NCBI RefSeq assembly: GCF_036971445.1
Contig: NW_027211833.1
Span: 1 to 64,000, forward strand
Direction of reading: 5' to 3'
Length of the DNA: 64,000 nucleotides
DNA from: Narcine bancroftii
Lineage: Eukaryota
Part shown: in pieces, positions 21,756-42,240 of the stretch
How positions within the stretch are numbered: the first letter of the stretch is position 1
Layout of the letters: the number at the start of each line of letters is the position of its first letter
Translations under genes and position numbers: made by a program
Notes under the pieces: generated by a model
The model's database searches: none
Told to the model about the DNA's origin: nothing
Seen by the model: the letters and a program-made list of their open reading frames with translations, nothing else

Positions 21756-21949
21756 CATGGGAGGGGGTGACACTCAGCCTAGTGACGCCACCGGTGCTGG
21801 GGAGGTCGAAGTGCTTTCGAAGAGATCCAGTCCTTTCTCTTTCCGACGTGACGCACGGAGAGGCACGAAGCACCGTGGTTCGTTCAGCAGCTCCTTCACT
21901 CAGTTCTTGGCCACTGTCCAGCAGCGCGGTGGAATCGTCCTTCACCAAC
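21756..21949 (+). promoter_or_regulatory. Putative CpG-rich TATA-less promoter/5'UTR of the Ig receptor gene
   Basis: CpG-dense; CRE half-sites TGACG at 21783 and 21849; lies immediately before the ATG. Confidence 0.45.
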
Positions 21950-21995
21950 ATGTCATCAGTTCAACGCTTACTTTCTCAACTCGCTTTTTGTCTGG
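21950..21995 (+). CDS. VJ-C1-ITIM receptor, exon 1: leader (MSSVQRLLSQLAFCL-G)
   Basis: ATG with A at -3, hydrophobic peptide, phase-1 donor G|GTAATT, 96-nt intron to the V exon. Confidence 0.75.
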
Positions 21996-22091
21996 GTAAT
22001 TCAGGAGTTCACTCTTCTTGTTTTGTCATTTCAGGTGTCCCTCCTCAGTGACTTTGTTACTTGACCAGAAACGGGTTATTTTCTGTCGCAG

Positions 22092-22421
22092 GTCTCGCCG
22101 TGGCGCCGAAAGTGATCCAGTCTCCCTCAACGATGACCCTTCTCCGGGGACAGACCGCTCGGATCAACTGCTCCCTGTGGGGCAGGGAGGAGTGGGGGGA
22201 TTCGGCCAGGTATTATTGGTCTCGACACGATTCACCCATCGGCTGCAACCGGTCCCAGGATTTCCTGAAAAACGGACCTCGGCTGACGACAAGGTCGGAC
22301 GGCTCGCTGGTCCTTCTGGACGTGGCCGTGAGTGACGCCGACACTTACTATTGCTGCGTGGTTGCGGATACCAGACCCTGGACAAGGTTGTCAGGAAACG
22401 GAACGCAATTGAACGTTCAAG
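22092..22421 (+). CDS. VJ-C1-ITIM receptor, exon 2: V-set Ig domain with germline-joined J-like strand
   Basis: TTTTCTGTCGCAG acceptor; VIQSP...ARINC...YYW...DADTYYC...SGNGTQLNVQ; donor G|GTAAAG; phase 1-1. Confidence 0.93.
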
Positions 22422-23187
22422 GTAAAGGTGAACTTCAGTCGGTGAACTCTGCCAATGCTCAGCAGAGCCGGGCAGCCGTGGGGCCGGACAACCCAGCCAA
22501 CGTCCCCGATCAGATTCAACCCAACCAGTGTTTTTCCCAGGCAAAGTTACCACCTCTTGGCGGTGCAAAAAACGGTATTTCTGGACACGCGGGCGCTCTC
22601 TCCGTGCGTGGCCTGGCCCGCGGAAGAATCCCCAGTTTGACTTAGGAACCGAGGTCAGCAGATTAACCAACACTGAAACAGTTCCCCGGACAGATCCAAA
22701 AGTCAGTGGACAGCGTGGACCCCCCCCCCCCCCCCCCCCACCACCGCCCCCCCCACCACCCCGCCGCAGAGCTCCACTTGCAGAGAGGTCGCTTTCCCAG
22801 CCCCGACCGGTTAAACACGTTGTTGCCATTGGTAAAGAGTGAAAACTTGCTGGGAAACAAATTTAAAGAAGATGCTGGAAACCCTCAGCATCTGTGGGGA
22901 GAAATGGCTTTTTGAACGTTTCCCATTGAAGCCCAGTCAGAAACTCAAACATTCACCCTGTTTCTTCTCCCGCGGATACGGACGAGGCGGCTGAGTCTTT
23001 CCAGCATCTTCTGCTTTTATTTTGGATTTTCAACTTAAAACAGAATCACCTTGTTCGATTTAATTTCCCATCGGCGCGCTCTTCGAGACCAGACCGAGCA
23101 CCACCGGCCGTTTCTGCCGCAGTTCCTCGCGGTGCCAGTCTCGGTTGGGCCAACATCCACAGCGTGTTATTTTTCCGTTTCATTCAG

Positions 23188-23487
23188 CGAAGCCCGAGCT
23201 CTTGCTCTCTGTGGATCCCAGGGTGAAGGCTGACGGGATTCGGACGCTGAGTTGTGAGGCCACGAGGTTTTTCCCGAGAGATCTGAATATTTCTTGGACC
23301 ATAACGGGCGGTGTCCCCTCCGAAAGCGAAGCGGGACAGCCATCAGTCAACGGGGACGGGACCTACCACCTGACCTCCCGGCTGCGGATCATTGAGACTC
23401 GGCAGGAGCCGGGTCCCGTCGTCACCTGCCACGTTCGGCACGTTACGGGCAATTCGTCGGCGAGCAAAAGTTTCCGTCTCATCCGAG
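23188..23487 (+). CDS. VJ-C1-ITIM receptor, exon 3: C1-set Ig domain
   Basis: TTTCATTCAG acceptor; AKP...LSCEATRFFPRDLNISW...NGDGTYHLTSRL...TCHVRH; donor G|GTAGGT; phase 1-1. Confidence 0.93.
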
Positions 23488-23799
23488 GTAGGTGGTTGAC
23501 AAAAGGATGAAATCCCACAGCCACTTTCTTCCGATTCCTGCTCAAATTTCAAGGGAGATAGAGTAAATATAGAGAAACCATTCGTCAATCTGAAATAGAC
23601 ACGGGGTATAAAGTATCAGGAAAACATCGTCAATGCATCGAATTTTATCCATTAACATTTCTCATAAGAATGATACAGTATTTGGAAATGAATAACTTGC
23701 TGAGATCAGTCCCGAATGGAATCCGAAGCAGAAAGAGGCACTCCCTTTTTACAGAAGCGGATTAATCTGCTAAGAGCTCCATACTTTTCTATTTCGTTT

Positions 23800-26700
23800 C
23801 CCAACTGCCGGTATTTCAGTCTGTAACGAGATTCCGTTTTTAGTTACGGCGTCCCTGCGGAAAACCACCACGAGCTGTGGCAATGGACTGCAAGAAATGA
23901 ATTCACATCAGTGGCCGCGCCACTGGTTTAACATCAAGAGCAGACAAAAACCTCGAATGATGGACTTCTACTGGACCGTCGCACTGTTCAAAGGGGCTCG
24001 TTCCACTTGCTCTTGGTTCCCAGCCCAGATTATTTAGCCACCGTAAACTCCATATTGTTGAATTGAATTCATTTATTCAGCCTTCCTCAAACGACCGGCG
24101 AACCTGGCCGCAATCAGAACCAAACTGCAACCAGTTCAGCCACAGATTCTAGGTGCCGAAGGATTGAAGTATCACGCCAAGTTTCATGATTGATTTCTAG
24201 ACGTGGAGGTCATACAGAGGGAAAGGCGTCGAGAATCGACAGGCAGACGAGAAGACGTCGGGGAAGACCCACAATACACTGCAGCCATGGGCCGAATAGT
24301 CTTTTTCTGTACTGCACTTACATTACTCAGCTTAAAGACCAAACGACATTTAATCGACCGGGAGAATTCTAGATGCTTCAAGCAGCGTGAAAATAAGTGA
24401 GAATATGTTGATGTTCCATGCCAAAACTACGTTTCCAGAGCAAAATGAATTTGTTCCCTGCCAGGTTTTGGCGAGTGAGCTCAATTCTAATGCCAGCGAT
24501 GCGGGGTTTTCGGGTGAGGAGTGACCTTGCCCATTCCGTGGGTTCCGAATGATGGGACTTGTGTGAAGTTCCAGGTCGCCTCGTTCCGTCGCGAGTCACT
24601 CAAGTTTAGTTCATAATAATCTTACAATAACCTGGAAAGGGCCGATCCCCCCATTTCCGAGTGTCTTCTGATCCCAGTTTGGCACAAGTGCATCGTCTTC
24701 AGGTGGCATCAGATGTTCTCTCTCGCTCTGGTCGTCCCCAGATCACTTCTGCAGGGGACCGTTTGGATGGTGCCACTCGCATTTCAAAGAAAGCCAGTGG
24801 GAAGACCTTAAACCAGCTTTGCCCAGTTTCTCCCATGAACTTAGTGATCTTTTTTAGTACTCCATTTGCTCTTTCCTCGAGGCCACCAGCCTGAGGATGA
24901 CGCACACAGTGCTGTTGAATTTTGAAATGACTCCTGATTAATAGTCGCAAGAGAGTGTGGACATTAGGGACATCTGAGCTTATTAACTTAGGCAAACCAA
25001 ATCACGGTATGACTTCCTTGAGTTGTAAAGTCACAGTGGGCTCTGCTGTATTATTGGCTTCAATCCATCTGCTTAAAAAAAGGGACGATATTTATAACAG
25101 ATAATCTATCTGAACGCACTCAATGGGTCGTGAGGGCATAGGCGTCTTCCCTTTGGGTCCTTTCATTGTTTTCCCTGGATGTTTTTTTACAAAGTTCACA
25201 TTCCAACGCGATTCCAATTCCTGTGGCACCCTCGGGTGCCACCATGATTTTTCAACCATTCTTCTCATTCCCTCCTTGTCTGAATGCGCGAGGGCGTGTC
25301 CAGAATTCGAAAGAGTCGGTCACAAGGATTCGGGTCGACAACCTTGAAGAAGGGAAACGCCTGGGTGTCCTTGTTTCCATCAAGCCATTTCCCCATCAGA
25401 GGCTCCCTCGGTTTATTTCGTGCTATTTCCATGTCTGGCATACCCGTCCTATTGATCAGGATTTGTCTCCCTGACGCTAGTCGGCGAGGGCATTTTTAGC
25501 CGCCTTGTCTGCCTCTGCTCCATGGGAGACAGCGTGGGCACTACATTTTATAATAGCCAGCTGTCTTGGTCGCCGAAGGGCACGGAGCAAATGGGTAACA
25601 TAAAGAACATTAGTGATAGGAGCCCCTGCAGACATTAGAAATCCCCGATGTTGCCCTAAAGAACCAAAATCATGGGTTATTCCAAAGGCATTGAGGGGTC
25701 GGTTTAAACATTTCGCTCCTCGCCTTCTCCCAGAATACATGCACGGGTCAGGGCTCCGTCTGTTGCGTTGAAAGTTTTCAAACCTTCCATCCTCCGCCAA
25801 GGTTCCCTCATGGTGATCAATGGCATGACCCTGAGGCACAGAAGAACCGTCTTATGAACCATGTGGTAGCGGAGTATCAAGCAGGTCCTGCCTCCCTGGG
25901 GTCAGGGAGGAATTGGCCTGGATCCAACAGTGGATCCTCCGGTGGATATTGGAGAAAAATGGAAAGATTCATTGGAGAACAACGTCGAAAGTTCAAATTC
26001 GGGTGGTAGAGGAGACTCCTCTGGTATTTACCGAATCTGGCTGCCGTCATGTTCTTGGCGAGGTCAGAATCCATCAAGGCCGTCGCACAGTGGGTCGATT
26101 CTACGGTCATGGGACGACGTCAATGTAGTCCAGGTCGAATCTGGGTCCATGGCTCCCCACGGGGTCTGATCGGACCCGTGCTTTTGGGTGAGTACTGCAG
26201 ACGCGCGATCCTGAATTCTGGTGACATCCAGCTGGAAGACCTGTCAAATAGGGGCCTTCCTATGGCTGGCGCCGAAGAAAGAGCTTCCTTTGGCTCTTCG
26301 AATGGCTGGAGCTCGTCCTGGGTTAGTGTCTGTGGAGCATTCGCTGAAGAAGAAGGATATCAATACTTGTCCATGTGGCCACCCCGGAATTCACTGTCTG
26401 CACAAGTTGATAAGTCCCAGGAAGGGGATATTGGGGACCTGTCCATCCCATGTCTCCTCATCTTCCCTCAGTATGTATTCGGTCTTGATCGTGGCTCCAG
26501 TCCCCGTCCGTCCCCCACCCCACCCCACCTCCTTTTCCAGACGACTCTGGCCAGAACCTTACTCCCGCACGTCTCATCTGATTCAAGTAGCTTTCTGTCC
26601 AATTTTTAAATTCGTTTTTTTTCATGCTCTGCTGTTTAGGGGGTGGGCAGCACATAAGGATCGAAATGAATGAGGCTGCAAGTTCTCCCCTGTAAAAGCG

Positions 26701-27769
26701 CGATCTCCAGCATGCGTTTTATATGTGTCTGCAAACCGGTCGAAATAAGTCTGGAGATCCCCTTGGGGCATTGGTTTGCAGTCTGTTATCTTAGACATGT
26801 TGATAGGCTGCTCAATCATAAAATTAATGCAAATAGGCATCCCAGCATCTCCTCTGTGGGCCTGTGTATCCTTTACTTCTTCCCACCTCTGACAATTCAT
26901 GGCAGTTTTCCAGTTTTTTTTCTGCTGCCATCAATTAAAATATCGTTAGGCCCCACACATCACTGGCTCTGTAATATTCTACTGTCAACGAAGGTGTCAG
27001 GTTGAGTACTTGGGGCTTTGTCTCTAATCAAATACAATTCCTAAGGAATATATGTCCACCTTATCCACCTGATTCGGGTCACCAGCCTGGCAGTTAGAAA
27101 CCGTTCTTATCGGAAGCATCAATCGATCAGGCTCGGTCCGGGCCAGGGGTTTAGTTTTTACTCTTTCCACAGAGGTCACGTCTGCAGCCCCATTATCTTC
27201 CAAGAGAGGGTACAAATCTGGTTCCTGCGCTGGAGGCGGAGGAGCAGCGGTCAGAACTAGTGCAGAAGTGGGTGGGCGTCCCTGGTGTCTCTCTCCCTGA
27301 TTTTTAGTGGTCATTAGGGGTTTCCGGAGACCGAATCTACAGCCTTTTTTACCAACTAATAGTTCATTCGATCATTTTTTCTACCGGTAAGTCTGCTGAT
27401 ACTTTTTTCCGTTTCTCTCTCTCTCTTCTCCTCCCACTTACACTCTGCCTCCAACAATTTCCATTCCTTCATGTTTTTTTCCCACCTTTTTCCTGCATCT
27501 TTTCCCCATATCAACATTTCAGCCTTTTTTATGGTTTCCACATTTCACGTTCCTCCGACTGGCCAGGCCTGATCTCCTAATCTCTTGGTGAACCAATGAC
27601 TCAGAATTTGATTCTTTTTCTACTGGGGTTCCAAATAACACATTATTTGTACTGGTGCTCCCCCGTCACTTTTATCAGGGTCATTTCCCATTTTACCAGT
27701 CTGTCTCTTTTGCATCTACTTCAGGGTATCGACTTTCACGTGGAGGTTTTTCCTCTCTTAACATCCGGT
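23800..27769 (-). mobile_element. Degenerate endogenous retrovirus (gamma/epsilon-like): gag, tether-RNase H, integrase; no recognisable protease/RT
   Basis: Gag start MGND at 27691 and matrix WPVGGT; RNase H AFGITHDFG..RGFL..LAIIKCSAH..ADKAAK; integrase ISSD..HPQAGGLEERANG; GPF motif. The low-coordinate boundary is uncertain. Confidence 0.8.
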
Positions 27770-28497
27770 TGTAATGGAAGATTTAAACCGTGTTTTTTCA
27801 CTTTTACACCCTTTGCTTCTGCAAGGCTGAGAACCTGCTTGTTTTTTAGAATCAGAAAACATAAGCTAATTTACACCATGAGGCCCAGGAAGCATATGAA
27901 TTAGTAGACACATCAAAATTCCACCATGAGGCCTAGAGATGCAGTTTTCTTTTGTTGGTCGCAGACTGTCAGGAGACCTTGAAGGTAATTAAATCATTTG
28001 TTCAAAGGGTTAGGGTTAGGGTTAGGCTATGAAGTAAACAACTTTTGGCTAATATAAGCCATGGTCCCACTGCTGAAGTTTGAGACTCTCCGAGAGGTGT
28101 CAAAATCTCTCAGCAAGAAGAAGAACTTCTAGAGTCCAGCTAACGTCCCGGTCGAGGGAGGTGGAGAAAGTGCAACTGGCGCCCCGACAACCTACTACGT
28201 GTGCAGTTGTTGCCTCTCTTCGGCAGTTAATGATAAGTAGAGTTGGGAAGGGCTAGCATATTGTAGTTTGAAATCAGCTTTTGAATTTGTAATAAACATT
28301 TGTATAAACTGAACTGCTCTCGGTGTGTGTGTCTATTTTCTTTCGGTAGCTCAAACACTGTGACCAATCTAAAGAAAACTGCATCTCTGGGCCTCATGGT
28401 GGAATTTAGCTCATGTCTTCTGATTCTAAAAAACAAGCAGGTTCTCACCCTTGCAGAAGCAAAGGCTGCAAAAGTAAAAAAAAAACACAGTTTAAAA
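27770..28497 (+). mobile_element. LTR family C copy, 3'-truncated and fused to an inverted copy of the LTR 5' end
   Basis: Homologous to 29851-30492; 28373-28497 is the reverse complement of the LTR start. Confidence 0.8.
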
Positions 28498-28499
28498 CA

Positions 28500-28960
28500 C
28501 TGATGAGAAAGTCGAGGATCCAGTTGCAGAGAGGGTTACAAAGGCTCAGAATCTGTGGCTACTTGATCAGCACTGAGGGGATAATGGTGTTGAAGGCCAA
28601 GCTGTGGTCGATGAAGAGCAGCCGTATGTATGAATTATTGTTTTCGAGGTGATCCAGAGCTGAGTGGGGAGCCAGTGATATTGCAGCTGCTGTGGTGGAT
28701 AGGCGGATGGCAGTGGGTCCAGATCTTTGCTTGGGTTTGTGTTAATTCAGCCATGAGCAGCCTCTGAACGCATTTCATCACAGTAGAAGTTAGTGCTACT
28801 GGGCGGTAATTGTTGAGGCAGCTCACACTATTCTTCTCGGGCTCTGGGATGATTGATGCCCCTTTGAAGCAGATGTGAAAATCTGACTGTAGCAATGAGA
28901 GGTTGAAAATGTCCGTGAACACTCCGGCTAGTTGGTTGGCACAGATTTTCAGAACCCTCT
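28500..28960 (-). mobile_element. Rex1/Babar-like LINE fragment
   Basis: FTDIFNLSLLQS...CLNNYRPVALTS. Confidence 0.8.
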
Positions 28961-29850
28961 GGACACAAAGTCTTGGAGAACAGGTTCAGCTTTATTTCGA
29001 GTCTGCAGACTCGGGGTGTCCCTGGTCTGGAGACACACCGGAGGTTCAGAATCATCTCTCCTTTGTACAGTCCTGCGCTCAACATCACCCCACCTTCATT
29101 TACCTTCTTCCAATCAGAATCCCAATACATTACAACATTCTCCTTCTCTCTTCCATCAATTCAGGTATCACTCAGTTCCTCCCTCTTCATACTTCGCATG
29201 TTATGTTAATTAGTTCATTCCCTCCTTAGGGGCGTCTAAGAATATTCATGTCTCAAGCGCAGTAGTAGCTATAGACTACCTTAGGTCACTGTACCAGCCT
29301 GAACCAGATCCTTGCATCCTTGGGGCTCGAGATAAGAAGGGGCCCACTAGCTAGTACTGTCTACTCTCAAGCTCTAATCTACACACTTTGCATTCCATCA
29401 CTTTTCACAGGATGGTGCGATTAGTCACTTTCAACCATTTTTCACACTGCGAACCAGAGTGGCATTCGCAGCAGTGGCTGTTCACGGCCCACTACTCTTC
29501 TCCCCCCCCCCCCCCTCCGTGGCAGCGACCTCTCTCCCGCCGATTGTGGGACCGCACCCAATTGTGGCCCCCCCTCTCTTCACACCCCCCCCCCACCCCC
29601 CGCAACCCCTCTCACCCCCTGATCGTGGCAGGCACTTCAGCCAGGGGTTTCCCTGTGATGCCAGTGTGCAACTGCTGACGTCACAGGAGTAACCAGGTCA
29701 GCCATTTTCCTGTTCAAGTTGCCGTTGGACACGACCTTGTTAAGTTTAACTGGGTTCTCTGACTACCTCTGAGGCAGGTCAGGGACTTGGTTGGATTTGG
29801 ACCACGCTGACTGGGTCAGACCTTTTCAAGCTGCCACATGAGTGGGGCAT

Positions 29851-30492
29851 TGTAATGGAAGATTTAAACTGTGTCTTTTACTGCAAGGCTGAGAACCTGT
29901 GTGGAATCTAAATTCCACCATGAGCCCAGGATGCATATTTAGTAAACACCCACCCATGGGGCCTCGGCTGCAGTTGAATAGGAAGACATGATCTAATTTA
30001 CACTTCTGAGGCCCAGAGCAGTTTACATTTGTTGGTCGCAGACTGTCAGGAGACCTTGAAGATAATTAAACCATTTGTTCAGAGAGATAAGTTTTGAGGT
30101 AAACAACTTTTGGGGTGATATGAGCCAAGGTCCCACTGCTGAAGTGAGAGACTCTGGAAGAGGTGGCTACATATCTCAGCAAGAAGAAGAACTTCTAGAG
30201 TCCAGCTAACGTCCCGGTCGAGGGAGGTAGAGAAGCTGCTACCGGCACCCCGACAACCTACTACAAGTGTGCGGTCGTTGCCTCGCTTCGGCAGTTGGGA
30301 CCAGTCCAGGCGTTGATAAGTATAATTGGGAAGGGCTTGCATATTGTAGTGTGAATTCAGTTTTAGATTTAGTAATAAAGACTTGTATAAACTGAACTGC
30401 TCTCGGTGTGTGTGTCTATTTTCTTTTGGTAGTTCGAACACTGTGACCAATCTAAAACGAACAAAGTGAGAGGTATAAGTTTACCCAAGACA
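29851..30492 (+). mobile_element. Solo LTR, family C
   Basis: TGTAATGG...CAAGACA ends, AATAAA, flanks GGCAT/GGCAC; sits inside a short palindromic element (about 29820-30550). Confidence 0.75.
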
Positions 30493-32124
30493 GGCACTAA
30501 CCGGGCAAATTGCCTGGTTAACCCCATTTTACATGGCAGTTTGAAAGGGCCTAATGATGGTGCTCGACCTGCTGAGTTTCTCCAGCAGGTTGTGGTTGGC
30601 TTCAGATTCCAGCATCTGCAGTCTCTTGTGTGTCTCCAATCCCATGAATATGATCACCAGATTCTTGGTGCATTATTCCAGGAAATACCTCTATTTTTGT
30701 ACCAAAGCTGCAACCAACTTTTGAGATAAGAGCACTCTATATAAGACAAATCCCTTGATGAAGGGATCAAGTCCAAAACATTAGGGTATCTCTATCTTTG
30801 CTATATAAAGGACAGTTTGACCTGCTGACTTTCTTCAACATTGTGTTGTAACTTCAATCACAGTTTCTGCAAGACTTTATGTTTTACTTTATACAAGAGT
30901 TGGATTTGCTCCAAACAGTTCATTTGAGGAAAATGCTTAGCTATTATTAATAACATTAAGAAACCAGTTCACATTCGTTGGTCCACCTCATGTTTGCAAG
31001 AAATTATGAACAAATGTAGCATCGGATAGATTCTATTTTTTTTCAATCAGCTTGCTTAGGATGAGCTCCAATTCTAGCTATCAATCAATCAAATTGATTA
31101 AAGTGAAATCTCCAATGTACGTAGAAAAAGACAGTTGAAGTTTCTTGGCAAATACTGATACACTATCAGATGGTTGACATTTATGCTTTGATCCAAATCA
31201 AAAATAGCACAAAACATCCTAAGAGGGTAAACTGGTCATTTTTTAAAAACAGCTCAGTCGTAACAGCAAATCACTTGGAACAATGCTTAAACAACAACAA
31301 ACAACAAAGCAAGACCTTTTAAGCATTAAAATAATTCTACCCAAAGAATGCTGGTCATGCTGATCTTTGACATTTCCCGACCGAAGGGCTTGGTCCTGCC
31401 TGGGAGCCCGAGTGCGAGGTCTGCCTGCTGCTGTCTCTGGGGACCCAAGGTTCACTGCTGTCGCCACCACGGCTGGGCGCCTGACATCCCTGGTCACTGG
31501 CTCTGAAACATTTTTGGATAACGGAGAATCCAATTTCGGATAATTAATACTCGGAGAATTTTTCCACCCTGCAAACAACATTTTTCTAACCTTTGTGAAA
31601 TGTTTGACTTTTCAAAGAAAACTTGGTAATTCATCACACCAAACCATGGTAATTTGCAACACTCGGAACAAATGATGGACACAGAACATAGCTCAGGAAC
31701 GAGCCCTTCAGCCCATAATGTCTCTGTTTATTGATCATGATGAAACTTAAACTAAATCTCTTCTGTCTGTACACAACACATATCCTTCAATCACTGGACA
31801 TTCATAGATCTATCGAGAAGCTTCTAAAACATTACTATTGTCTTTATTGTGGGTGGCATCTTTCCTGTCACAATAGTTCTCATGAACAATAAGTGTGTTT
31901 TTCTCTTCTGATTCCATCCATTCTTTAAGGATTGTTTGGATAAATAAGATATGGAATGATTATCTAGGTTTACTGCTATGCAAGTGGAACTATTTTTGAC
32001 ATGGTGTGTAATTTCTGCCAAGTGAATCCAATTGACAACTTTAATGAGAAAAAAAATTCAGAGAATGTAGATTTAAATCTATGTTTTAAAAAATGTACAA
32101 TGTATTGTAACGTGCATTGAAATT

Positions 32125-32320
32125 AAATTTAGACATACAGTATGGTAACAGGCCATTTTGGCCCACGAGTCAGTGCCACCCAATTTACACCCCCGGTATG
32201 TTTTTAATGGTGGGAGGAAACCCACACAAACATGGGAAGAATAAACAAACTACAGACAGCGTGGGATTCAAACCCCGGTCCTGATTGCAGGCGCTGTAAA
32301 GGCATTGTGCTAACCACTGG
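32125..32320 (-). mobile_element. tRNA-derived SINE
   Basis: Reverse strand AGTGGTTAGCAC...GGGTTTGAATCCC (A/B boxes). Confidence 0.7.
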
Positions 32321-32428
32321 TTCGTACCCCTCTGGTTTTTACCTCTCTGTTTCAACACCAATGTTATGGACATGTTTGCATTTCTTTGCAACATAATTTT
32401 GATTCACATTTCCTTGGTATTTTTGAAG

Positions 32429-32530
32429 GATTCTCCAAGTATTATTTTGTTCTGTTGGGACTTACCTTCATTGTACCATTATGCCTCTGGATTATTTCTA
32501 ATCGATACAGTAAATTGAAGAATGGAGAAG
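32429..32530 (+). CDS. VJ-C1-ITIM receptor, exon 4: transmembrane (GFSKYYFVLLGLTFIVPLCLWIISNRYSKLKNGE)
   Basis: TATTTTTGAAG acceptor, 20-aa uncharged hydrophobic run then basic residues, donor AAG|GTAATC; phase 1-1. Confidence 0.8.
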
Positions 32531-32789
32531 GTAATCATATACATTGTCCATTTTACTTCATAATTGACAAAAACTGAGCAATATCAAAAAGGAAAATTGC
32601 ATTTAGTTCCTGGGGGGAGGGGGGAACGGGGACGGGGGCGGGGGGGGGGAACGACAACAAAACCGTCATCAGACAAGTGAAAATCAATTTTAAATTTGAC
32701 ATTCAGCCATTTTTCTCTACAGGATATATTAATATAGCCTGTAAATTAAAATAGTTACACCAAAGGAAATGAAGTTCGATGTTCCATTT

Positions 32790-33385
32790 CAAATGTTTTT
32801 ATTGAGTTATATATATGCTCATTCATGGGTAATAATAAAAATATACAACAAAGTCAATGTATATTAATATATAGCTATAAAAGCAACCTATGAAAGGGAT
32901 AAAAACAAAAAATATATATGTAAAGCAAAAGTTATTCTCATGTTCTAACCCCTCCCTTGTGATGATTAAACATAAACACTCCATTAATATATGAAAGAAA
33001 GGACCACTAAACGATAAAATGGGATCCAATAAACATAAATTCTGAAAATAATCAAGGAAAGGGCCCTGTAAATTTAAAAAGTTAAATTTCATTACATGAG
33101 TAGAGCACCTAATTTTTTTCCAGAGTCAAGCATGCCATCATATTAGGTAACATCCTTCCATCTCATAAGTATAACTCTTCCAGCAATACATGGGATTGTA
33201 GCCCAGACAAATTTAAATCAGCTGACTTACTTACTTCAAATAGGGCAAGAAAAGGACTAGGAACCAAATTAAAATTAAGAACTAAAGACAAAGTGCAGAA
33301 GATACTTTCCCAATTACTGGACAGCAAGGAACATAACCAAAGCATATGAAATAATGTACCTTCTTCAGTCTAAGCTAAGATGTTT
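32790..33385 (-). mobile_element. L1-like LINE 3' remnant
   Basis: AT-rich, resembling an ORF2 C-terminus (GTLFHMLWLC-like); AATAAAAAACATT-type end. A similar remnant lies at about 9885-10295. Confidence 0.5.
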
Positions 33386-33601
33386 ATATGAGAAAATTAA
33401 CACATCTAAACATATATAGTTAAGCGTTCAATTAAGCCCAACATATCTTTCAAGTGTAGATGATGAAAATGGATTAAAATGGCAATGGTGATACTTATTA
33501 GCATCTAAATGTTGTCTAAATATTTCCCTTCGCTTACTGCTAAGTGCATATATTTGTTCTCCAAGGCTGAGATGCTTCTAATATTCATGATATTTTTATA
33601 G

Positions 33602-33672
33602 AATCACCAGGCCATGTCAAAAATATCGGTAATCAAACAACAAGAAAATGGGTGAAAGACTCAGTCAATAAA
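33602..33672 (+). CDS. VJ-C1-ITIM receptor, exon 5: cytoplasmic (ESPGHVKNIGNQTTRKWVKDSVNK)
   Basis: ATTTTTATAG acceptor, consensus GTAAGT donor, open frame; converts phase 1 to phase 0 as needed to reach exon 6. Confidence 0.7.
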
Positions 33673-35090
33673 GTAAGTATATTTCTTTGTTATTTTCTCC
33701 CATGCTCATGTTCCCAGCCTCCGAAGTACTGAATGTACAGAAAGTGCTGTCAGTTGAGTTGAATACATTTATCAGCATTTTTCAACATGAAGCACTGAGA
33801 ACAGAAAGGGGAGAATATGTAGAGTCAGTTGGGTGGAATCTATCTCAACTCTCTGATAGTTAGCAAATGTCTGAGCAGAGTAGATTGAAGACTTCTGAAT
33901 GAGATCAGATTACGAGGACTTGGGCTCCCCAACTTTCCTTCTAGTATTAGTTGATACTGGAGTCTGTAAAATGTTCTGGCAATGTGACAGGTGTGGGAAA
34001 CTAATTTATTTTAATAGAAGGAGTATAACTATTCACAAAGATACATTTAAACTTTTAAAAAACCTAGGGCTCTGTGATATTGCTCACAAATTAAACAAAC
34101 CCAATCTGCTGCATATGGTCCATCCCCTTCATTCCCTGCCTCTCCATGCGCTGTTCTTAATGTTTCTTAAATTTGCTACCATGCATCCAGGCATCTCTCG
34201 CTCTCTCTGTAAAACACATCTTTAAATGTTCCCCCTTTCACCGCAAATCAATAGCCTCTGGTGTGAATATTGGTCATTTTTGGTAAATGCTCCAATAACT
34301 TGATTGAAATTCACTCAACCGATGCATTTGAAGTTGGAGATAGGAGGTTGGCAGTGGAGGCAGAGGGTCATATCTTCCTATTTATAAATCTATTTATTTA
34401 TTTGCTTGTTTGTTTTCACATTTTTCGGCCTTCAGCCACATGTTAACATATCACCCATTGAGGAATATTCCCAGAAATTATGTCTTAGGTTTTAGACTTG
34501 TTGATAGCTAATCAGCCAGCATGTATCGTATTTGCAGCTGAAGCCGCCAGCACCAGCTTAGCCAATATCTGTTGAAATCCTGTGGTTTTTCAAAATACGC
34601 TTCTAAAATCTCAGCATATGCAAATTTTCACAACTCTCAAGAGTTACGTGAATTTCAATTTGTATTTTATTCTCACTATAAAAACCCTTGACAAAGTAAT
34701 GCTTGTTGAATAAGGAGCAACTTCAAGAGCTGTTAAAATAATTTTAAAAATACTTTTTCTTATTCTGGCTCTTGTTCTATTCTCTTTGCACTGCTTTCTG
34801 AACATTATAAAAAGTGAACAACAAAGCCTGCTTCTCACTTTGTGCATTTTAAGCAAAATTCTGCAATAAATTTAGCTTTTTTGCCTGTTTAGTCCTTCTA
34901 GTGACAAGAAAGTGAAATGTATGTTCTAGAACTCACTTGCTCAGTAAGTCGACCTTTTGCGATCCGTGGTGTGCAATTGCTTTGTCATTTTTCAAAATCA
35001 ATTCAGTTGCCAATGACCGGTTGAAAAAGAAACGCTATTATTGCTTTGCATCAGATACTAGTCTTTTAAAATAAATATTCCAGTGTGTAA

Positions 35091-36070
35091 TGTTATAAGT
35101 CCAGAGGATCCCAAAACCCAGCAGCAATATGTGAGAAACAGAATTACCTTCACAGAATTTGCTCGAGACAAAAATTGAGGACAAAGAACTTTTATTCTAC
35201 TATTTCAACAATGCAAAGTTGGGGGCTTCCCCTTACCCTGGGAATACACACAGATACTGAGGCTGACCCAACTTTTATACATTTCATTTCAGCACAGAGA
35301 TACCTTCCCCCCAACATTCTTCTGCCTCCTGGATTGGTTTAGCATTAGGTAATTCCGCCCACGTGGATTCTAACTTCTTATCAGTTTACGTGCCTTCCTG
35401 CAAACTTGTTAGCCGGGAAATATCATGTCTTTGTTCTTTAGTCATTAATCAATCCCCAAGACTTGCTAAATCTATTTACTTGCTATCCTGTTTTAAAGAT
35501 CCTTATTTTATTATACTTTTATAACCCTTCCTAACCCTTCCTCCCATTCTAGCATCCCTTCACCCTAAATTAACCCATAATACTTCATCCTTAATTTGCA
35601 CTTGCTTGACTCCTCACATTCCAGTATCCCTTACAAATAGGTATGTACCACGACAAAGGGTTACTTAAATAAAAGTTACTTATAATTATCTTTGAACATG
35701 AAAATAGAATCAAATTTTAACTTATCTCCATTAACTCACTTAACCCTCTTCTAATTTTAAGTGCACATGCGTATAATGTGTGTGTAAGTTCAGCAAAGTT
35801 CTTTGGATCACAGTCCAATCTCACTGGTTGCAGGCAATTCTTGTACTGTGCACAGAAGTTAACATTAATAAAGTTCACCAGGCTTTGGTGCTTAACAGGT
35901 AAATGGTTACCACTTAGAAAGGTTCTTGTTGGTTTTCAGAGAGTTTTTCTTGTTTCAGGTCATCAGAGTTCCTTTCTGTTTCTCCTATTCCAAGGGAAAC
36001 ACCAGACAGCCAGTCCTCTCCTTTGACCAGGCCATCTTCCAAAGCTTGCCAGGGTGTGTATGTTTGTCTG

Positions 36071-39108: not shown

Positions 39109-39264
39109 GATAAAGCTTCTCTAAGGGATGAAACTCTGCAATATGCATCTGTTAAGTTTAACAATCCTCCAAAGGGAACTCAAAAACAGAATTTGAGAAC
39201 ACCAGAGGAAACCTTTGCAAAAGAATATGCTGTTTTAAAGGTCAAAGATAAAAATAATCTATGA
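39109..39264 (+). CDS. VJ-C1-ITIM receptor, exon 6: terminal exon with ITIM and ITIM-like motif
   Basis: Strong acceptor GTTGTTTTTGTGTTGCAG; phase 0; DKASLRDETLQYASVKF...AKEYAVLKVKDKNNL*. Confidence 0.85.
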   Translation, partial: DKASLRDETLQYASVKFNNPPKGTQKQNLRTPEETFAKEYAVLKVKDKNNL

Positions 39265-40921
39265 AGAGCCTGTACATACTACCACAGTTAGCATTTGCAC
39301 CACATCAAATAGAATATAAACAGCTAATTACCATACAACCACAAATTCCTCTCTAAAGCAATTTATATAAGACCTGAGAAACCAAAATGAAAGAAGGTGC
39401 CATGGCTTCCAAAATCTATTCCTCCATTCAATATGGTCTTGGCCAATATCATATGTCCAGCTCAGTTCATACATCTGCTAATTTCCAAAAGATCAGATAA
39501 GTGAGAAGAAGTGAGCAATTTGGCTCCACCATTCCATCATGAGCTGATCCATTCTCCCACTCCCCTTCTCCTGACTTCTCCCACTCCCCTTCTCCTGATA
39601 ACCTTTGATACACTGACTATTCAGGTAGGACTCAAAACCTAGAACTCAACAACTGAATTTTGAGGTAGAAAATTTCAAAGATTTACAATCTGTTTTGTCA
39701 ATGTCTTTCTTTCTATCTCAATTCATAATGACTGACTCCATATCTTGAATCTAGTGGTGGACTCTCCAGCAAAAGGAATTTGCCAGGCACCTATGCTTTT
39801 ATGTAGGTCAAAACTTGAGCTTCATATAGCCAACCATTTTAAGTCTACCATTTGTACAGTGACACATCAGTCTTTGGCCTCATCCATTGTCAGGGTGAGG
39901 ATAGAAGTAAACCTGAGGAACAACACAGCATATTCCTCATGGACATCAATAAACCTAACGAACTGAACATTGATTTTTTTTCTAACTTTGAGTAACACCC
40001 ACCCTCATCTGATTCCATTGTTTCAATTTCTTCTTACCCAGTACTCAATTTTTTCACTCTCTTTACCTTTTCTTCCCCTCCATGTTTTCTCCGGCCTGTC
40101 CCTCTCTATACCTTCTGACCCATACCCTATCACCTCTTCCCAGCTTCTTTCCCCCCATACATGTGTAATTTTACTTTTTTATCTTGATCTTGATATAGGA
40201 TTTTGACTCAAAAGGTTATCTGCCCATTCTACTCGTGGATGATCCCTGACCTGCTGAGTTCCTCCAGCAATTCTTTGACTGAGCAAGATTCCAGCATTTG
40301 CAGCTTTTGTGTTTCTCATCTTTTGGTATCTGTCCTGTTTCTTTCTCTCAGGAGCTCATCTTTCATTCTGCCAAATACACATGAGTAAAGACTCAATCTC
40401 CCTTCATTGGGCCACTCCTTCCTCCCAAGAATTAATTTAGTGAATCTATGATGGACTGACTCTGAGGTCGATTTAAACCTTCTTTGATAATCAAACTAAG
40501 TGGTTCAAATGTTGTTTTAAGGTCATAAGACGAGCTCACTTTTGCACTCCAACCTCCTTGCAATGAAGTCCAGTTTCCCATCTCAGAAATCAATGGCACC
40601 AATACTTTTCACACAAATGATTTTTAGCTTCTGTGCATTTTAAAAAAAATTGGCCAAGGATTTATTGTCCCTTCCGTCCTTATCAACATGACCTATTCAG
40701 CACCATTCCCCGTCTCACCTTCCTGCACCTGAACACATCTTTATGTAGCAGTTTTTGGTAGTGATGTTGGCTCTGACCTGGTCAGTAAAGACCTGTGCAA
40801 CATAAACCTCTTCAGCAAATTCAGGTATCTGGGGTGCAGGATTAAATCAGCCCTGACCACAGGAATGTTTTGACAGCCATCCAAGCATGTGCACAGGAAA
40901 AATCAGCAATTTTAAACACCT

Positions 40922-42240
40922 TGTGACAAATTGTGTTATATTTAATATTGTACATAGATATGTTTTATAGGAGATAAATTGTGGCAGGTTTTTAATGTAG
41001 GTCATGTACAAACACTTCAAAACAGATCTCGTTTAAAATGCTTAAGTTCTGCTCAAGCCAAACAGTTCAGGCTCTTGGTGCCTTTGCACAAACTTTGAAG
41101 AATGCCTATAAGGACTTCACAAGTAGATGTGAATTGGACATGCTGTGGAGTAATGGATTATTGTTTTGGAATGCAACAGATGAACGAACTTGGAAGATTA
41201 GGTCCAGAGCCGGGGTCTGTTCTAAGAGGGTCATATGGTTTTCTCTGTGTGTGAGAGAGAAAATTCAGTTCTACAGGCCAGCAGCAGCAGCTGGGACTGG
41301 AACATGACAAGCTGGCAAGCTTGTGGAAAAACCCCATCTGGAAGATGGGTTGCGAGTTCTTAGTTCAGCCTGGTCAAAGCCCTTGTGGTCCATAGAAGAG
41401 GAGAGGACTGGCTGCATAATGTTTCACTTGAAATAAGGGAAACAAAAAGGAATTCTGTGGTGACCTTAAAGAAAGAGGTTATTATTTGGAAAACCCTGAG
41501 GGGGCAAGTTTCTTTGGCAAGACACTGAAGTGGCTGATCAGAAGGAATCAGTTGTGGGTGTCCGATGAGCAACAAATCTCTCTGAAAACTGACAAAAACT
41601 TCCTGAGCTGTAACCATTTACCTTTTAAGCACCAAAGCCTGATGAAATTCATAAATGTTAAATTCTGGACACAGAAGCATTGCTTGCAGCCAGTGAACTT
41701 GGAGGAGTGAGAAGTGAGATTGGACTGTGAATCAAAGAACTTTTCTGAATTTGTATACACATTACATTACATAGACCACCGCCAGTGGGCTGATAACGCC
41801 TCAAACCGTGCATCTTGGCGCCTCACAGTTTGGCGGGCAGCAGCCTCCTTTGAAGAAGACCGCAGAGCCCACCTCACTGACAAAAGGCAAAGGAGGAAAA
41901 ACCCAACACCCAACCCCAACCAACCAATTTTCCCTTGCAACCGCTGCAATCGTGTCTGCCTGTCCCGCATCGGACTGGTCAGCCACAAACGAGCCTGCAG
42001 CTGACGTGGACTTTTTACCCCCTCCATAAATCTTCGTCCGCGAAGCCAAGCCAAAGAAAGAAGAAGACATAGACAAGTGCTTAGAATTAGAAGGGGGTTA
42101 AGTAAGTTAATAGTAATAAATTGGGGTTTGATCCTGTTTTCATGTTTAAAGATAATTAAAAGCAACTTTTGTTTAAGTAACCATTTGTCTTGGTGAATTT
42201 CTATTGGTACTGGGTTTTGGGGTCCTCTGGGCTCATAACA
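40922..42240 (+). mobile_element. Solo LTR, family B
   Basis: TGTGACA...CATAACA ends, flanks ACCT/ATCT, AATAAA. Confidence 0.8.
41777..42066 (+). mobile_element. Short 3' RTE insertion within the LTR
   Basis: Essentially identical to the young RTE 3' end; TSD ACATAGAC (41769-41776 / 42067-42074). Confidence 0.92.

What the first reader, a model, noticed from the sequence alone, without database searches (positions are those of the whole stretch)
22345..22421. Germline-joined J-like strand of NKp30/CTLA-4 type, with no RSS
Seen: after DADTYYC comes a 12-residue CDR3-like loop (CVVADTRPWTRL), then SGNGTQLNVQ and a J-style phase-1 donor, all in one exon. I found no heptamer/nonamer nearby. Known: the GNGT G-strand without the F/W of FGxG occurs in NKp30 and CTLA-4. 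Inference: an NKp30/CD28-family-like V is attached to a C1 domain, which those receptors lack.
Basis: partly seen in the sequence, partly recalled or inferred. Interest (0 to 1): 0.7.

Follow-up and report, generated by a model that had tools for sequence, protein, structure and literature searches.

The report
Shark-and-ray checkpoint-like VJ-C1 receptor
This intact electric-ray gene encodes a predicted membrane protein with a pre-joined antibody-like tip, one constant domain and two inhibitory-type tail motifs, so it likely acts as an immune brake; it belongs to a shark-and-ray family whose tip likely comes from the CD28/CTLA-4 checkpoint group rather than from NKp30 or antibodies.

Summary
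In detail: one exon (22092-22421) carries V, a 12-residue CDR3-like loop and a GxGT J-like strand, with a phase-1 donor and no credible RSS. It is exon 2 of an intact 334-aa leader-VJ-C1-TM-tail gene of the ray Narcine bancroftii; three junctions are seen in RNA-like contigs, and the tail has an ITIM and an ITSM-like motif. Relatives occur in 13 shark and ray species, auto-named SIRP-like or kappa-like. Four species also have a short-tailed twin, mostly with a membrane arginine; Narcine's twin is a pseudogene. The missing F/W proves little: SIRPs lack it too, and 3 of 13 species have it. Better evidence: 6 of 7 sharks carry E-x-P-x-P in the CD28H register, and profiles favour CD28H-type V domains. 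One tree excludes the Ig/TCR clade; topology tests reject neither SIRP nor Ig/TCR. It is not NKp30, which has a separate candidate elsewhere. Best reading: an inhibitory paired receptor that works like SIRP-alpha or PD-1, with a CD28H-type V on a C1 domain. It may be the shark PRARP (untested). The scan noted similar paired VJ-C1 shark receptors on other DNA; same family not shown.

The parts
21950..21995 (+). Leader exon (ATG at 21950; split leader, phase 1). The RefSeq model starts 85 codons earlier.
   Evidence: Orthologs start at this Met; spliced contig X1 covers 21833-21994 joined to 22091
21996..22091 (+). 96-nt leader intron, GT..AG
   Evidence: Joint in X1 and X2
22092..22421 (+). Single VJ exon; short C-to-F span (W41 to C104 = 46 residues), model shows no C'/C'' strands
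22345..22421 (+). The finding: F-strand YYC, 12-residue CDR3-like loop, SGNGT J-like G strand, phase-1 donor
23188..23487 (+). C1-set exon
   Evidence: Pfam C1-set E 1.7e-12; V-C1 joint in X1
32429..32530 (+). Transmembrane exon, no charged residue in the hydrophobic span
   Evidence: loose end after C1 in X1 matches 32430 onward
33602..33672 (+). First cytoplasmic exon; also joined directly to the V exon in one contig (in-frame form without C1 and TM)
39109..39264 (+). Coding part of the terminal exon; stop at 39262-39264. Orthologs read further: Narcine shifts frame here and loses the distal tyrosine motifs.
   Evidence: contigs X1 39109-39552 and X2 39109-39425 match without gaps
39136..39153 (+). 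ITIM-consensus motif LQYASV
   Evidence: L-[QH]-Y-A-x-V in all 12 species with a long-tailed form
39220..39237 (+). Second tyrosine motif KEYAVL (TEYAVL-type, ITSM-like, in most orthologs), 28 residues after the first
39265..40988 (+). Likely 3' UTR
   Evidence: Overlapping contigs 39109-40988 in X1-X4; contigs cannot fix an end
32053..35315 (.). 3.27-kb block (TM and first cytoplasmic exon) duplicated inverted at contig 81192-84461, 99.6% identical

Best explanation
This is an intact, spliced, non-rearranging leader-VJ-C1-TM gene that likely encodes an inhibitory immune receptor, the 'off' member of a shark-and-ray paired-receptor family whose V domain likely comes from the CD28H branch of the CD28 family. 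Shown: exon structure, open frame, three splice joints, V-set plus C1-set domains, uncharged TM, two tyrosine motifs, orthologs in 13 species, short-tailed twins in 4. Inferred: the V domain binds a cell-surface ligand through its CDR3/FG loop (a B7-family protein is my guess from the CD28H-like loop); the tyrosines are then phosphorylated and recruit SHP-1/SHP-2 to damp activation, as for PD-1 and SIRP-alpha; the short-tailed twin would signal 'on' through its TM arginine and an FcR-gamma/CD3-zeta-type adaptor. In Narcine the twin is dead and the tail is cut to two motifs, so only the brake would remain.
For: Gene model and phases give 334 aa with one terminal stop. Joints leader-V, V-C1, C1-TM in run X1. 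Family: 16 of 17 hits among 7,995 candidates scored are elasmobranch members at E <= 1e-94; the 17th is a bird SIRP at 1e-18; cluster members bring it to 13 species. ITIM plus second motif in 12 of 13 species. Short-tailed forms: 5 proteins in 4 species, Arg at the outer TM edge in 4 of 5, His in 1; broken Narcine paralog with that TM exon type at G000:C16:26.38 Mb. CD28H link: Pro at positions 10 and 12 of a 20-residue YxC...GxG loop in 6 of 7 sharks, in 6 of 32 parsed panel V domains (all CD28H/CD28X-type by motif) and in none of the other 26; panel rows L069, L008 and L061 match the published CD28H, CD28HL2 and CD28X loops. hhalign scores. Tree: sister to P0058, an EIPPP V on a C1, 97/89; outside the Ig/TCR clade, 95/93.
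Against: The CD28H placement is not firm: family plus EIP/PPP rows has support only 72/73, and without P0058 (picked for likeness to the query) the position is unresolved. AU tests reject no rival: SIRP p 0.146, germline-joined IgL 0.094, all antigen-receptor type 0.184, NKp30-like 0.21. The multi-V shark family scored 81 against the full family profile, above the 75 of CD28H-type (2 of its 3 rows were picked for likeness to the query). Narcine and the other 5 batoids have lost E-x-P-x-P. The best 60 of 609 PDB profile hits are mostly TCR V-alpha, VNAR, IgL and scFv, with no CD28-family chain. Foldseek ranks VNAR and SIRP first. The C1 tree resolves nothing. No ligand, cell type or signalling data exist; runs X1-X4 are only guessed to be RNA and come from one study.
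Confidence: 0.6

Rival explanations
1. It is the cartilaginous-fish ortholog or sister of SIRP-alpha/beta and reads a CD47-like self marker.
For: RefSeq auto-names; only non-elasmobranch hit is a bird SHPS-1; Atlas feature search ranks SIRP-alpha clusters first at 0.95; Foldseek interleaves SIRP-alpha with VNAR; V-C1(-C1), ITIM tail and paired twin fit; SIRPs also have a 19-21-residue loop ending in GxGT; AU p 0.146 for V, 0.34-0.42 for C1.
Against: No YYCVK motif; a SIRP V query finds only one match in the genome (28 candidates scored) and it is not this gene; hhalign 56 against 75; V and C1 trees never join family and SIRP; the second C1 in stingrays is a near-identical tandem copy, so V-C1-C1 is recent; the twin uses an edge Arg, whereas SIRP-beta uses a mid-TM Lys (recalled).
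Confidence: 0.2
2. It is the elasmobranch ortholog of the already described PRARP/VJC1 genes (compatible with the best explanation on mechanism; lowers novelty).
For: From memory, PRARP is a pair of VJ(-C1)-TM genes with two ITIM/ITSM motifs in birds, reptiles, amphibians and bony fish; PMC11599192 lists it among joined-VJ IgSF genes.
Against: PMC10751288 cites PRARP as an MHC gene; this family's Narcine paralog lies on C16 between a B7-like V exon and an EWI-motif multi-V gene, not on the contig with BTN, tapasin-like and UrIg-like exons (C5) (labels by motif). No bony-vertebrate member was found.
Confidence: 0.15
3. It is a germline-joined IgL or TCR gene, rearranged in the germline and later given a TM and inhibitory tail.
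For: Split leader with a 96-nt intron, V-C1 order, germline-joined IgL genes in the same genome; best PDB sequence hits are TCR V-alpha, VNAR, IgL; AU p 0.094-0.184.
Against: Outside the Ig/TCR clade at 95/93; lowest profile scores among J-bearing groups for TCR (44) and IgL (51); F/W absent in all 7 sharks, so FGxG in stingrays looks secondary; VNAR likeness follows from the shared short C-to-F span.
Confidence: 0.06
4. It is NKp30 (NCR3) or its direct paralog with an added C1.
For: GNGT strand; the twin's TM Arg resembles NKp30 (PMC6514059); NKp30 is in the VIA list at Z 11.5, rmsd 2.5, 97 aligned (rank 38); AU p 0.21.
Against: Another Narcine V exon hits NKp30 over its full length (E 4.5e-6) and lies among BTN/tapasin-like genes; this gene has an uncharged TM, an ITIM tail and a 19-20-residue loop against 17.
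Confidence: 0.03

Closest known systems
CD28H (TMIGD2) and CD28HL1-3/CD28X (Quiniou et al. 2024, PMC11599192)
   Same: Joined VJ domain, GxG without J-type F/W, same 20-residue loop with E-x-P-x-P in shark orthologs; CD28HL3 has an ITIM/ITSM pair
   Different: That family is defined as one V, TM and tail; this has a C1 domain and a paired twin; the EIP motif is degenerate; five family motifs and accessions searched were not in the paper's supplements (only IEIPPP, from CD28H rows, was found)
SIRP-alpha / SIRP-beta
   Same: V plus C1 domains, ITIM tail, paired forms; works-like model
   Different: One C1 ancestrally, no YYCVK, does not group with SIRP in V or C1 trees, twin has an edge Arg
PD-1
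   Same: ITIM plus TEYAxx motif pair; CD28-family V
   Different: PD-1 has no C1, no CDR3 prolines, motif gap 18-25 residues; shark PD-1 is listed as a separate gene without conserved motifs
PRARP / VJC1 (Fu 2019; Ohta 2019; not read)
   Same: Recalled as non-rearranging VJ-C1-TM with two ITIM/ITSM motifs, in pairs
   Different: Cited as MHC-linked; orthology untested
UrIg / UrIg2 (PMC12227049)
   Same: Elasmobranch non-rearranging VJ exon, split leader, C1 domains; UrIg2 is the top PDB hit for the C1 exon
   Different: 3 to 11 C domains; UrIg secreted; V closer to Ig/TCR; MHC or AgR-complex linked
NKp30 (NCR3)
   Same: GNGT-type strand, joined VJ
   Different: Single V, TM Arg, activating; separate candidate in this genome

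Membership tests
CD28 family | Single V domain, TM, cytoplasmic tail (no C domain) | tested here: not met
   C1-set exon spliced after V; definition in PMC11599192
CD28 family | CDR3 motif (PPP or EIP) in YxC...GxG register | tested here: inconclusive
   E-[KT]-P-R-P in 6 of 7 sharks in the same register, not literal EIP; absent in Narcine and 5 other batoids
CD28 family | Cytoplasmic tyrosine motifs | tested here: met
   ITIM plus ITSM-like motif
CD28 family | Conserved synteny block of a known member | tested here: inconclusive
   Gene is on a 95-kb unplaced contig; the paralog's neighbours (B7-like V, EWI multi-V gene) match no block named in the paper, but only 200 kb were read
CD28 family | Binds a B7-family ligand | not testable with these tools
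   Needs binding assays
NKp30 (NCR3) | One IgV domain | tested here: not met
   V plus C1; definition in PMC6514059
NKp30 (NCR3) | TM arginine, no inhibitory tail | tested here: not met
   Uncharged TM, ITIM tail; met only by the short-tailed twins of other species
SIRP | V plus C1-set domains | tested here: met
   One C1 in most species, two in Mobula, Hypanus and one Hemitrygon gene; SIRP-alpha has two (PMC2785349)
SIRP | ITIM tail with an activating partner | tested here: met
   (motifs only)
SIRP | V and C1 domains group with SIRP | tested here: inconclusive
   Not grouped in any tree, not rejected (p 0.146; 0.34-0.42)
SIRP | CD47 binding | not testable with these tools
   Needs binding assays
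Rearranging or germline-joined Ig/TCR | Split V and J with RSS, or V nested among IgL/TCR V | tested here: not met
   Single exon, no credible RSS; outside the Ig/TCR clade at 95/93, though AU does not reject nesting
Rearranging or germline-joined Ig/TCR | J motif F/W-G-x-G | tested here: not met
   S-G-N-G here; F in 3 of 13 species
PRARP / VJC1 | Orthology to published PRARP sequences; MHC linkage | not testable with these tools
   Papers not held; no reference sequence available
UrIg / UrIg2 | VJ followed by three or more C1 domains | tested here: not met
   One C1 exon on the whole contig

The most novel reading that the evidence does not exclude
CD28-family checkpoint receptors descend from a non-rearranging VJ-C1 receptor built like an antigen-receptor chain and lost the C1 later. 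Sharks and rays keep the intermediates: this paired family and two more CD28H-type V exons tied to a C1 (P0058 with its Narcine C1 at G000:C16:4.35 Mb, and G000:C27:11.24 Mb).
Probability: 0.25. Interest if true: 0.75.

Novelty: new variant of a known kind. Interest (0 to 1): 0.5.

Why it matters
[quoted passage not shown] A conserved elasmobranch family that joins a CD28H-type V to a C1 domain links the two questions and gives sharks a candidate inhibitory checkpoint with an activating twin; shark PD-1 is listed without inhibitory motifs. The kind itself (joined VJ, C1, ITIM, paired) is known from SIRP and, as recalled, PRARP, and the genes are already in RefSeq under misleading automatic names, so this is a family-level advance, not a new principle.

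Tried and rejected
Single-sequence fold failed (pLDDT 46); the 22-row alignment fold worked (87.7) but mixes SIRP-, CD28H- and NITR-type rows. Fold searches do not pick a family: VNAR leads (Z 13.6-13.8, rmsd 1.6-1.8, 92-93 aligned) with NCAM and TCR within about 1-2 Z; CD28, CTLA-4 and CD28H are not among listed rows, which excludes nothing. PDB searches with L008, A7 and P0058 were swamped by antibodies and gave no label. Atlas V-only search gave generic V-set clusters. The HMMER library search was dominated by multi-Ig proteins (91 hits). The 64-row careful tree did not finish; one search is the quick tree; reduced trees used 34 and 27 of the 64 rows. My first idea that FGxG is ancestral was dropped once sharks were added. 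The span value 54 for Narcine is a parsing slip; 46 is right. No RNA holder is on record; the first laying was swamped by repeats. No activating-type TM exon was found on contig C53. The RefSeq first-exon extension and last exon (41180-41251) have no ortholog or joint support. A bacterial promoter scan was irrelevant. No complex was predicted because no ligand is known. Sequence and place look-ups in earlier findings were empty.

Full report
Observation. The stretch 22345-22421 is the 3' end of one exon, 22092-22421. It reads YYC, a 12-residue loop, SGNGTQLNVQ and a phase-1 GT donor. The exon is V-set (E 3.7e-10) and the next one, 23188-23487, is C1-set (E 1.7e-12). No RSS lies at the V/J junction. 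One weak site (2+2 mismatches, 13-bp spacer) sits at the other end of the exon, against 0.075 expected by shuffling; a slightly different setting found 23-spacer RSS at 5 of 8 rearranging V loci of this genome.

The gene. A RefSeq protein of Narcine bancroftii matches the exon exactly. Mapping it and its orthologs gives six exons and an open 334-aa protein: leader, VJ, C1, uncharged TM and a tail with LQYASV and KEYAVL 28 residues apart. Contigs of runs guessed to be RNA show GT..AG joints for leader-V and V-C1, a C1-to-TM end, and one in-frame V-to-tail end that skips C1 and TM. They come from one study, and introns are covered at low depth too. Orthologs read further in the last exon and sharks carry up to two more tyrosine motifs; Narcine shifts frame and stops at 39262-39264, and contigs from two runs agree with the assembly there. 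Only one intact V copy was found in the genome (19 candidates scored).

The family. A profile search returned 17 proteins from 7,995 candidates scored: 16 elasmobranch members at E <= 1e-94 and a bird SIRP at 1e-18. With cluster members there are 13 species, 7 sharks and 6 batoids; no chimaera or bony vertebrate member appeared. Long ITIM-bearing forms occur in 12 species. Five short-tailed proteins in 4 species have a different TM exon, with Arg at its outer edge in 4 and His in 1; in Pristis the two ectodomains are nearly identical. That these are separate genes I infer from accessions and sequence differences. Narcine has a broken paralog with this TM exon at G000:C16:26.38 Mb, with a partial inverted V and stops in C1, between a B7-like V exon and an EWI-motif multi-V gene (labels by motif, recalled). 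Stingray-group members have a recent tandem C1 copy.

Where the V comes from. All 5 SIRP-type rows share it, and F is present in 3 of 13 species, all in the stingray group, so it is probably secondary. The orthologs give a better clue. Six of 7 sharks have YxC-x4-E-[KT]-P-R-P-x5-GxG, the register of shark CD28H and CD28HL2 loops in Supplement S4 of PMC11599192. In my panel of 54 other V domains, 32 could be parsed; prolines at those two positions occur in 6, all CD28H/CD28X-type, and in none of the other 26. Three Narcine panel rows are anchored to published motifs (L069 CD28H, L008 CD28HL2-like, L061 CD28X); other labels are mine, from recalled motifs. Profile scores were 75 for CD28H-type, 57 CD8, 56 SIRP, 55 NKp30-like, 51 germline-joined IgL and 44 TCR; a multi-V shark family scored 81, but 2 of its 3 rows were chosen for likeness to the query, and it fell to 69 against shark members alone. 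Trees put the family next to P0058, an EIPPP V on a C1 (97/89), and outside the Ig/TCR clade (95/93). Deeper placement is open and AU tests reject no rival (p 0.09-0.21). The C1 tree is uninformative. The model (pLDDT 87.7) shows no C'/C'' strands, matching a short W41-C104 span of 46-49 residues, which likely explains why VNAR tops the fold searches. NKp30 has its own candidate on another contig, and a SIRP V query does not find this gene.

Mechanism. Shown: architecture, splicing, motifs and conservation. Inferred from PD-1 and SIRP-alpha (PMC11599192, PMC2785349): ligand binding, tyrosine phosphorylation, SHP-1/2 recruitment and inhibition. Inferred from NKp30 and NKp46 (PMC6514059): the twin's Arg pairs with an ITAM adaptor. 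The ligand is unknown; B7-family is a guess from the loop, CD47 the SIRP alternative. I give about 0.9 for an intact non-rearranging receptor with an inhibitory-type tail and about 0.6 for the whole reading with CD28H-type origin.

Comparison. It works like SIRP-alpha or PD-1. It is not a CD28-family member by the published definition (C1 present), not NKp30, not UrIg, not Ig/TCR; SIRP membership is inconclusive; PRARP could not be tested.

Literature seen. PMC11599192: parts 1-5 of 6 of the main text, Supplement S4 whole, two term searches of 9 supplements. PMC12227049: abstract, sections 4 and 7, first third of references. PMC10751288 and PMC6514059: passages. PMC2785349: abstract, opening and two passages. 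Fu 2019, Ohta 2019, Flajnik 2023, Dornburg and Yoder 2022, Ohta and Flajnik 2015 and Flajnik 2018 were not available; what I say of PRARP's structure is recalled. Ten searches found no description of this family, but the library lacks the journals most likely to hold one, and supplements of the unseen papers or of PMC12227049 and PMC10751288 may list it.

Earlier findings. Eight notes of this scan describe paired VJ-C1 or multi-VJ receptors in sharks and skates, most naming SIRP as closest. I saw them after forming my reading. Sequence look-ups with three family proteins found no look-alike, so identity with those families is not shown.

Verdict. A real, conserved, probably unnamed elasmobranch receptor family; a new variant of a known kind. 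Interest 0.5.

Noticed in passing
L008 (G000:C8:32733388-32733708, -): V exon whose loop closely matches shark CD28HL2; PMC11599192 reports cd28hl2 absent from rays. Synteny not checked.
   Followed up: partly
L062 and L131 (G000:C27:11238959-11241878, -): Another VJ exon with CD28H-type prolines 2.4 kb from a C1 exon; loop resembles bichir CD28HL3, which was not found in cartilaginous fish; its C1 groups weakly (88/75) with SIRP C1.
   Followed up: partly
P0058; L006 (G000:C16:4346783-4347091, -): Pristis V(EIPPP)-C1-TM protein auto-named kappa light chain-like; its Narcine C1 has a stop and no V exon was found within 4.33-4.37 Mb.
   Followed up: partly
L020, L098 (G000:C16:26380700-26384800): Pseudogene of the short-tailed twin: inverted partial V, stops in C1, open TM exon with His.
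   Followed up: yes
window 22421 to 33602: One contig end joins V directly to the first cytoplasmic exon, in frame: a possible 200-aa soluble form.
   Followed up: partly
window 32053-35315: Inverted 99.6% copy at contig 81192-84461 carrying the TM and first cytoplasmic exons; recent duplication or assembly artefact.
   Followed up: no
window 22092-22421: Two extra cysteines in the Narcine V (one in the C-D loop, one right after the F-strand Cys) could form a second disulfide; not tested.
   Followed up: no
L080 and L078 (G000:C5:180.96 and 181.14 Mb): Two VJ exons among BTN-like genes; L080 matches human NKp30 over its length.
   Followed up: partly
G000:C1:268.49-268.65 Mb: Cluster of about 11 divergent C1-set exons, identity not worked out.
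   Followed up: no
L043, P0054 (G000:C9:2.9 Mb): Multi-VJ membrane receptor family with short loops and ITIM-like tails, expanded in Scyliorhinus.
   Followed up: no
window 24600-27600: Degenerate LTR-retroelement-like frames in the C1-TM intron and several LINE fragments across the window; labels by eye, not tested.
   Followed up: no
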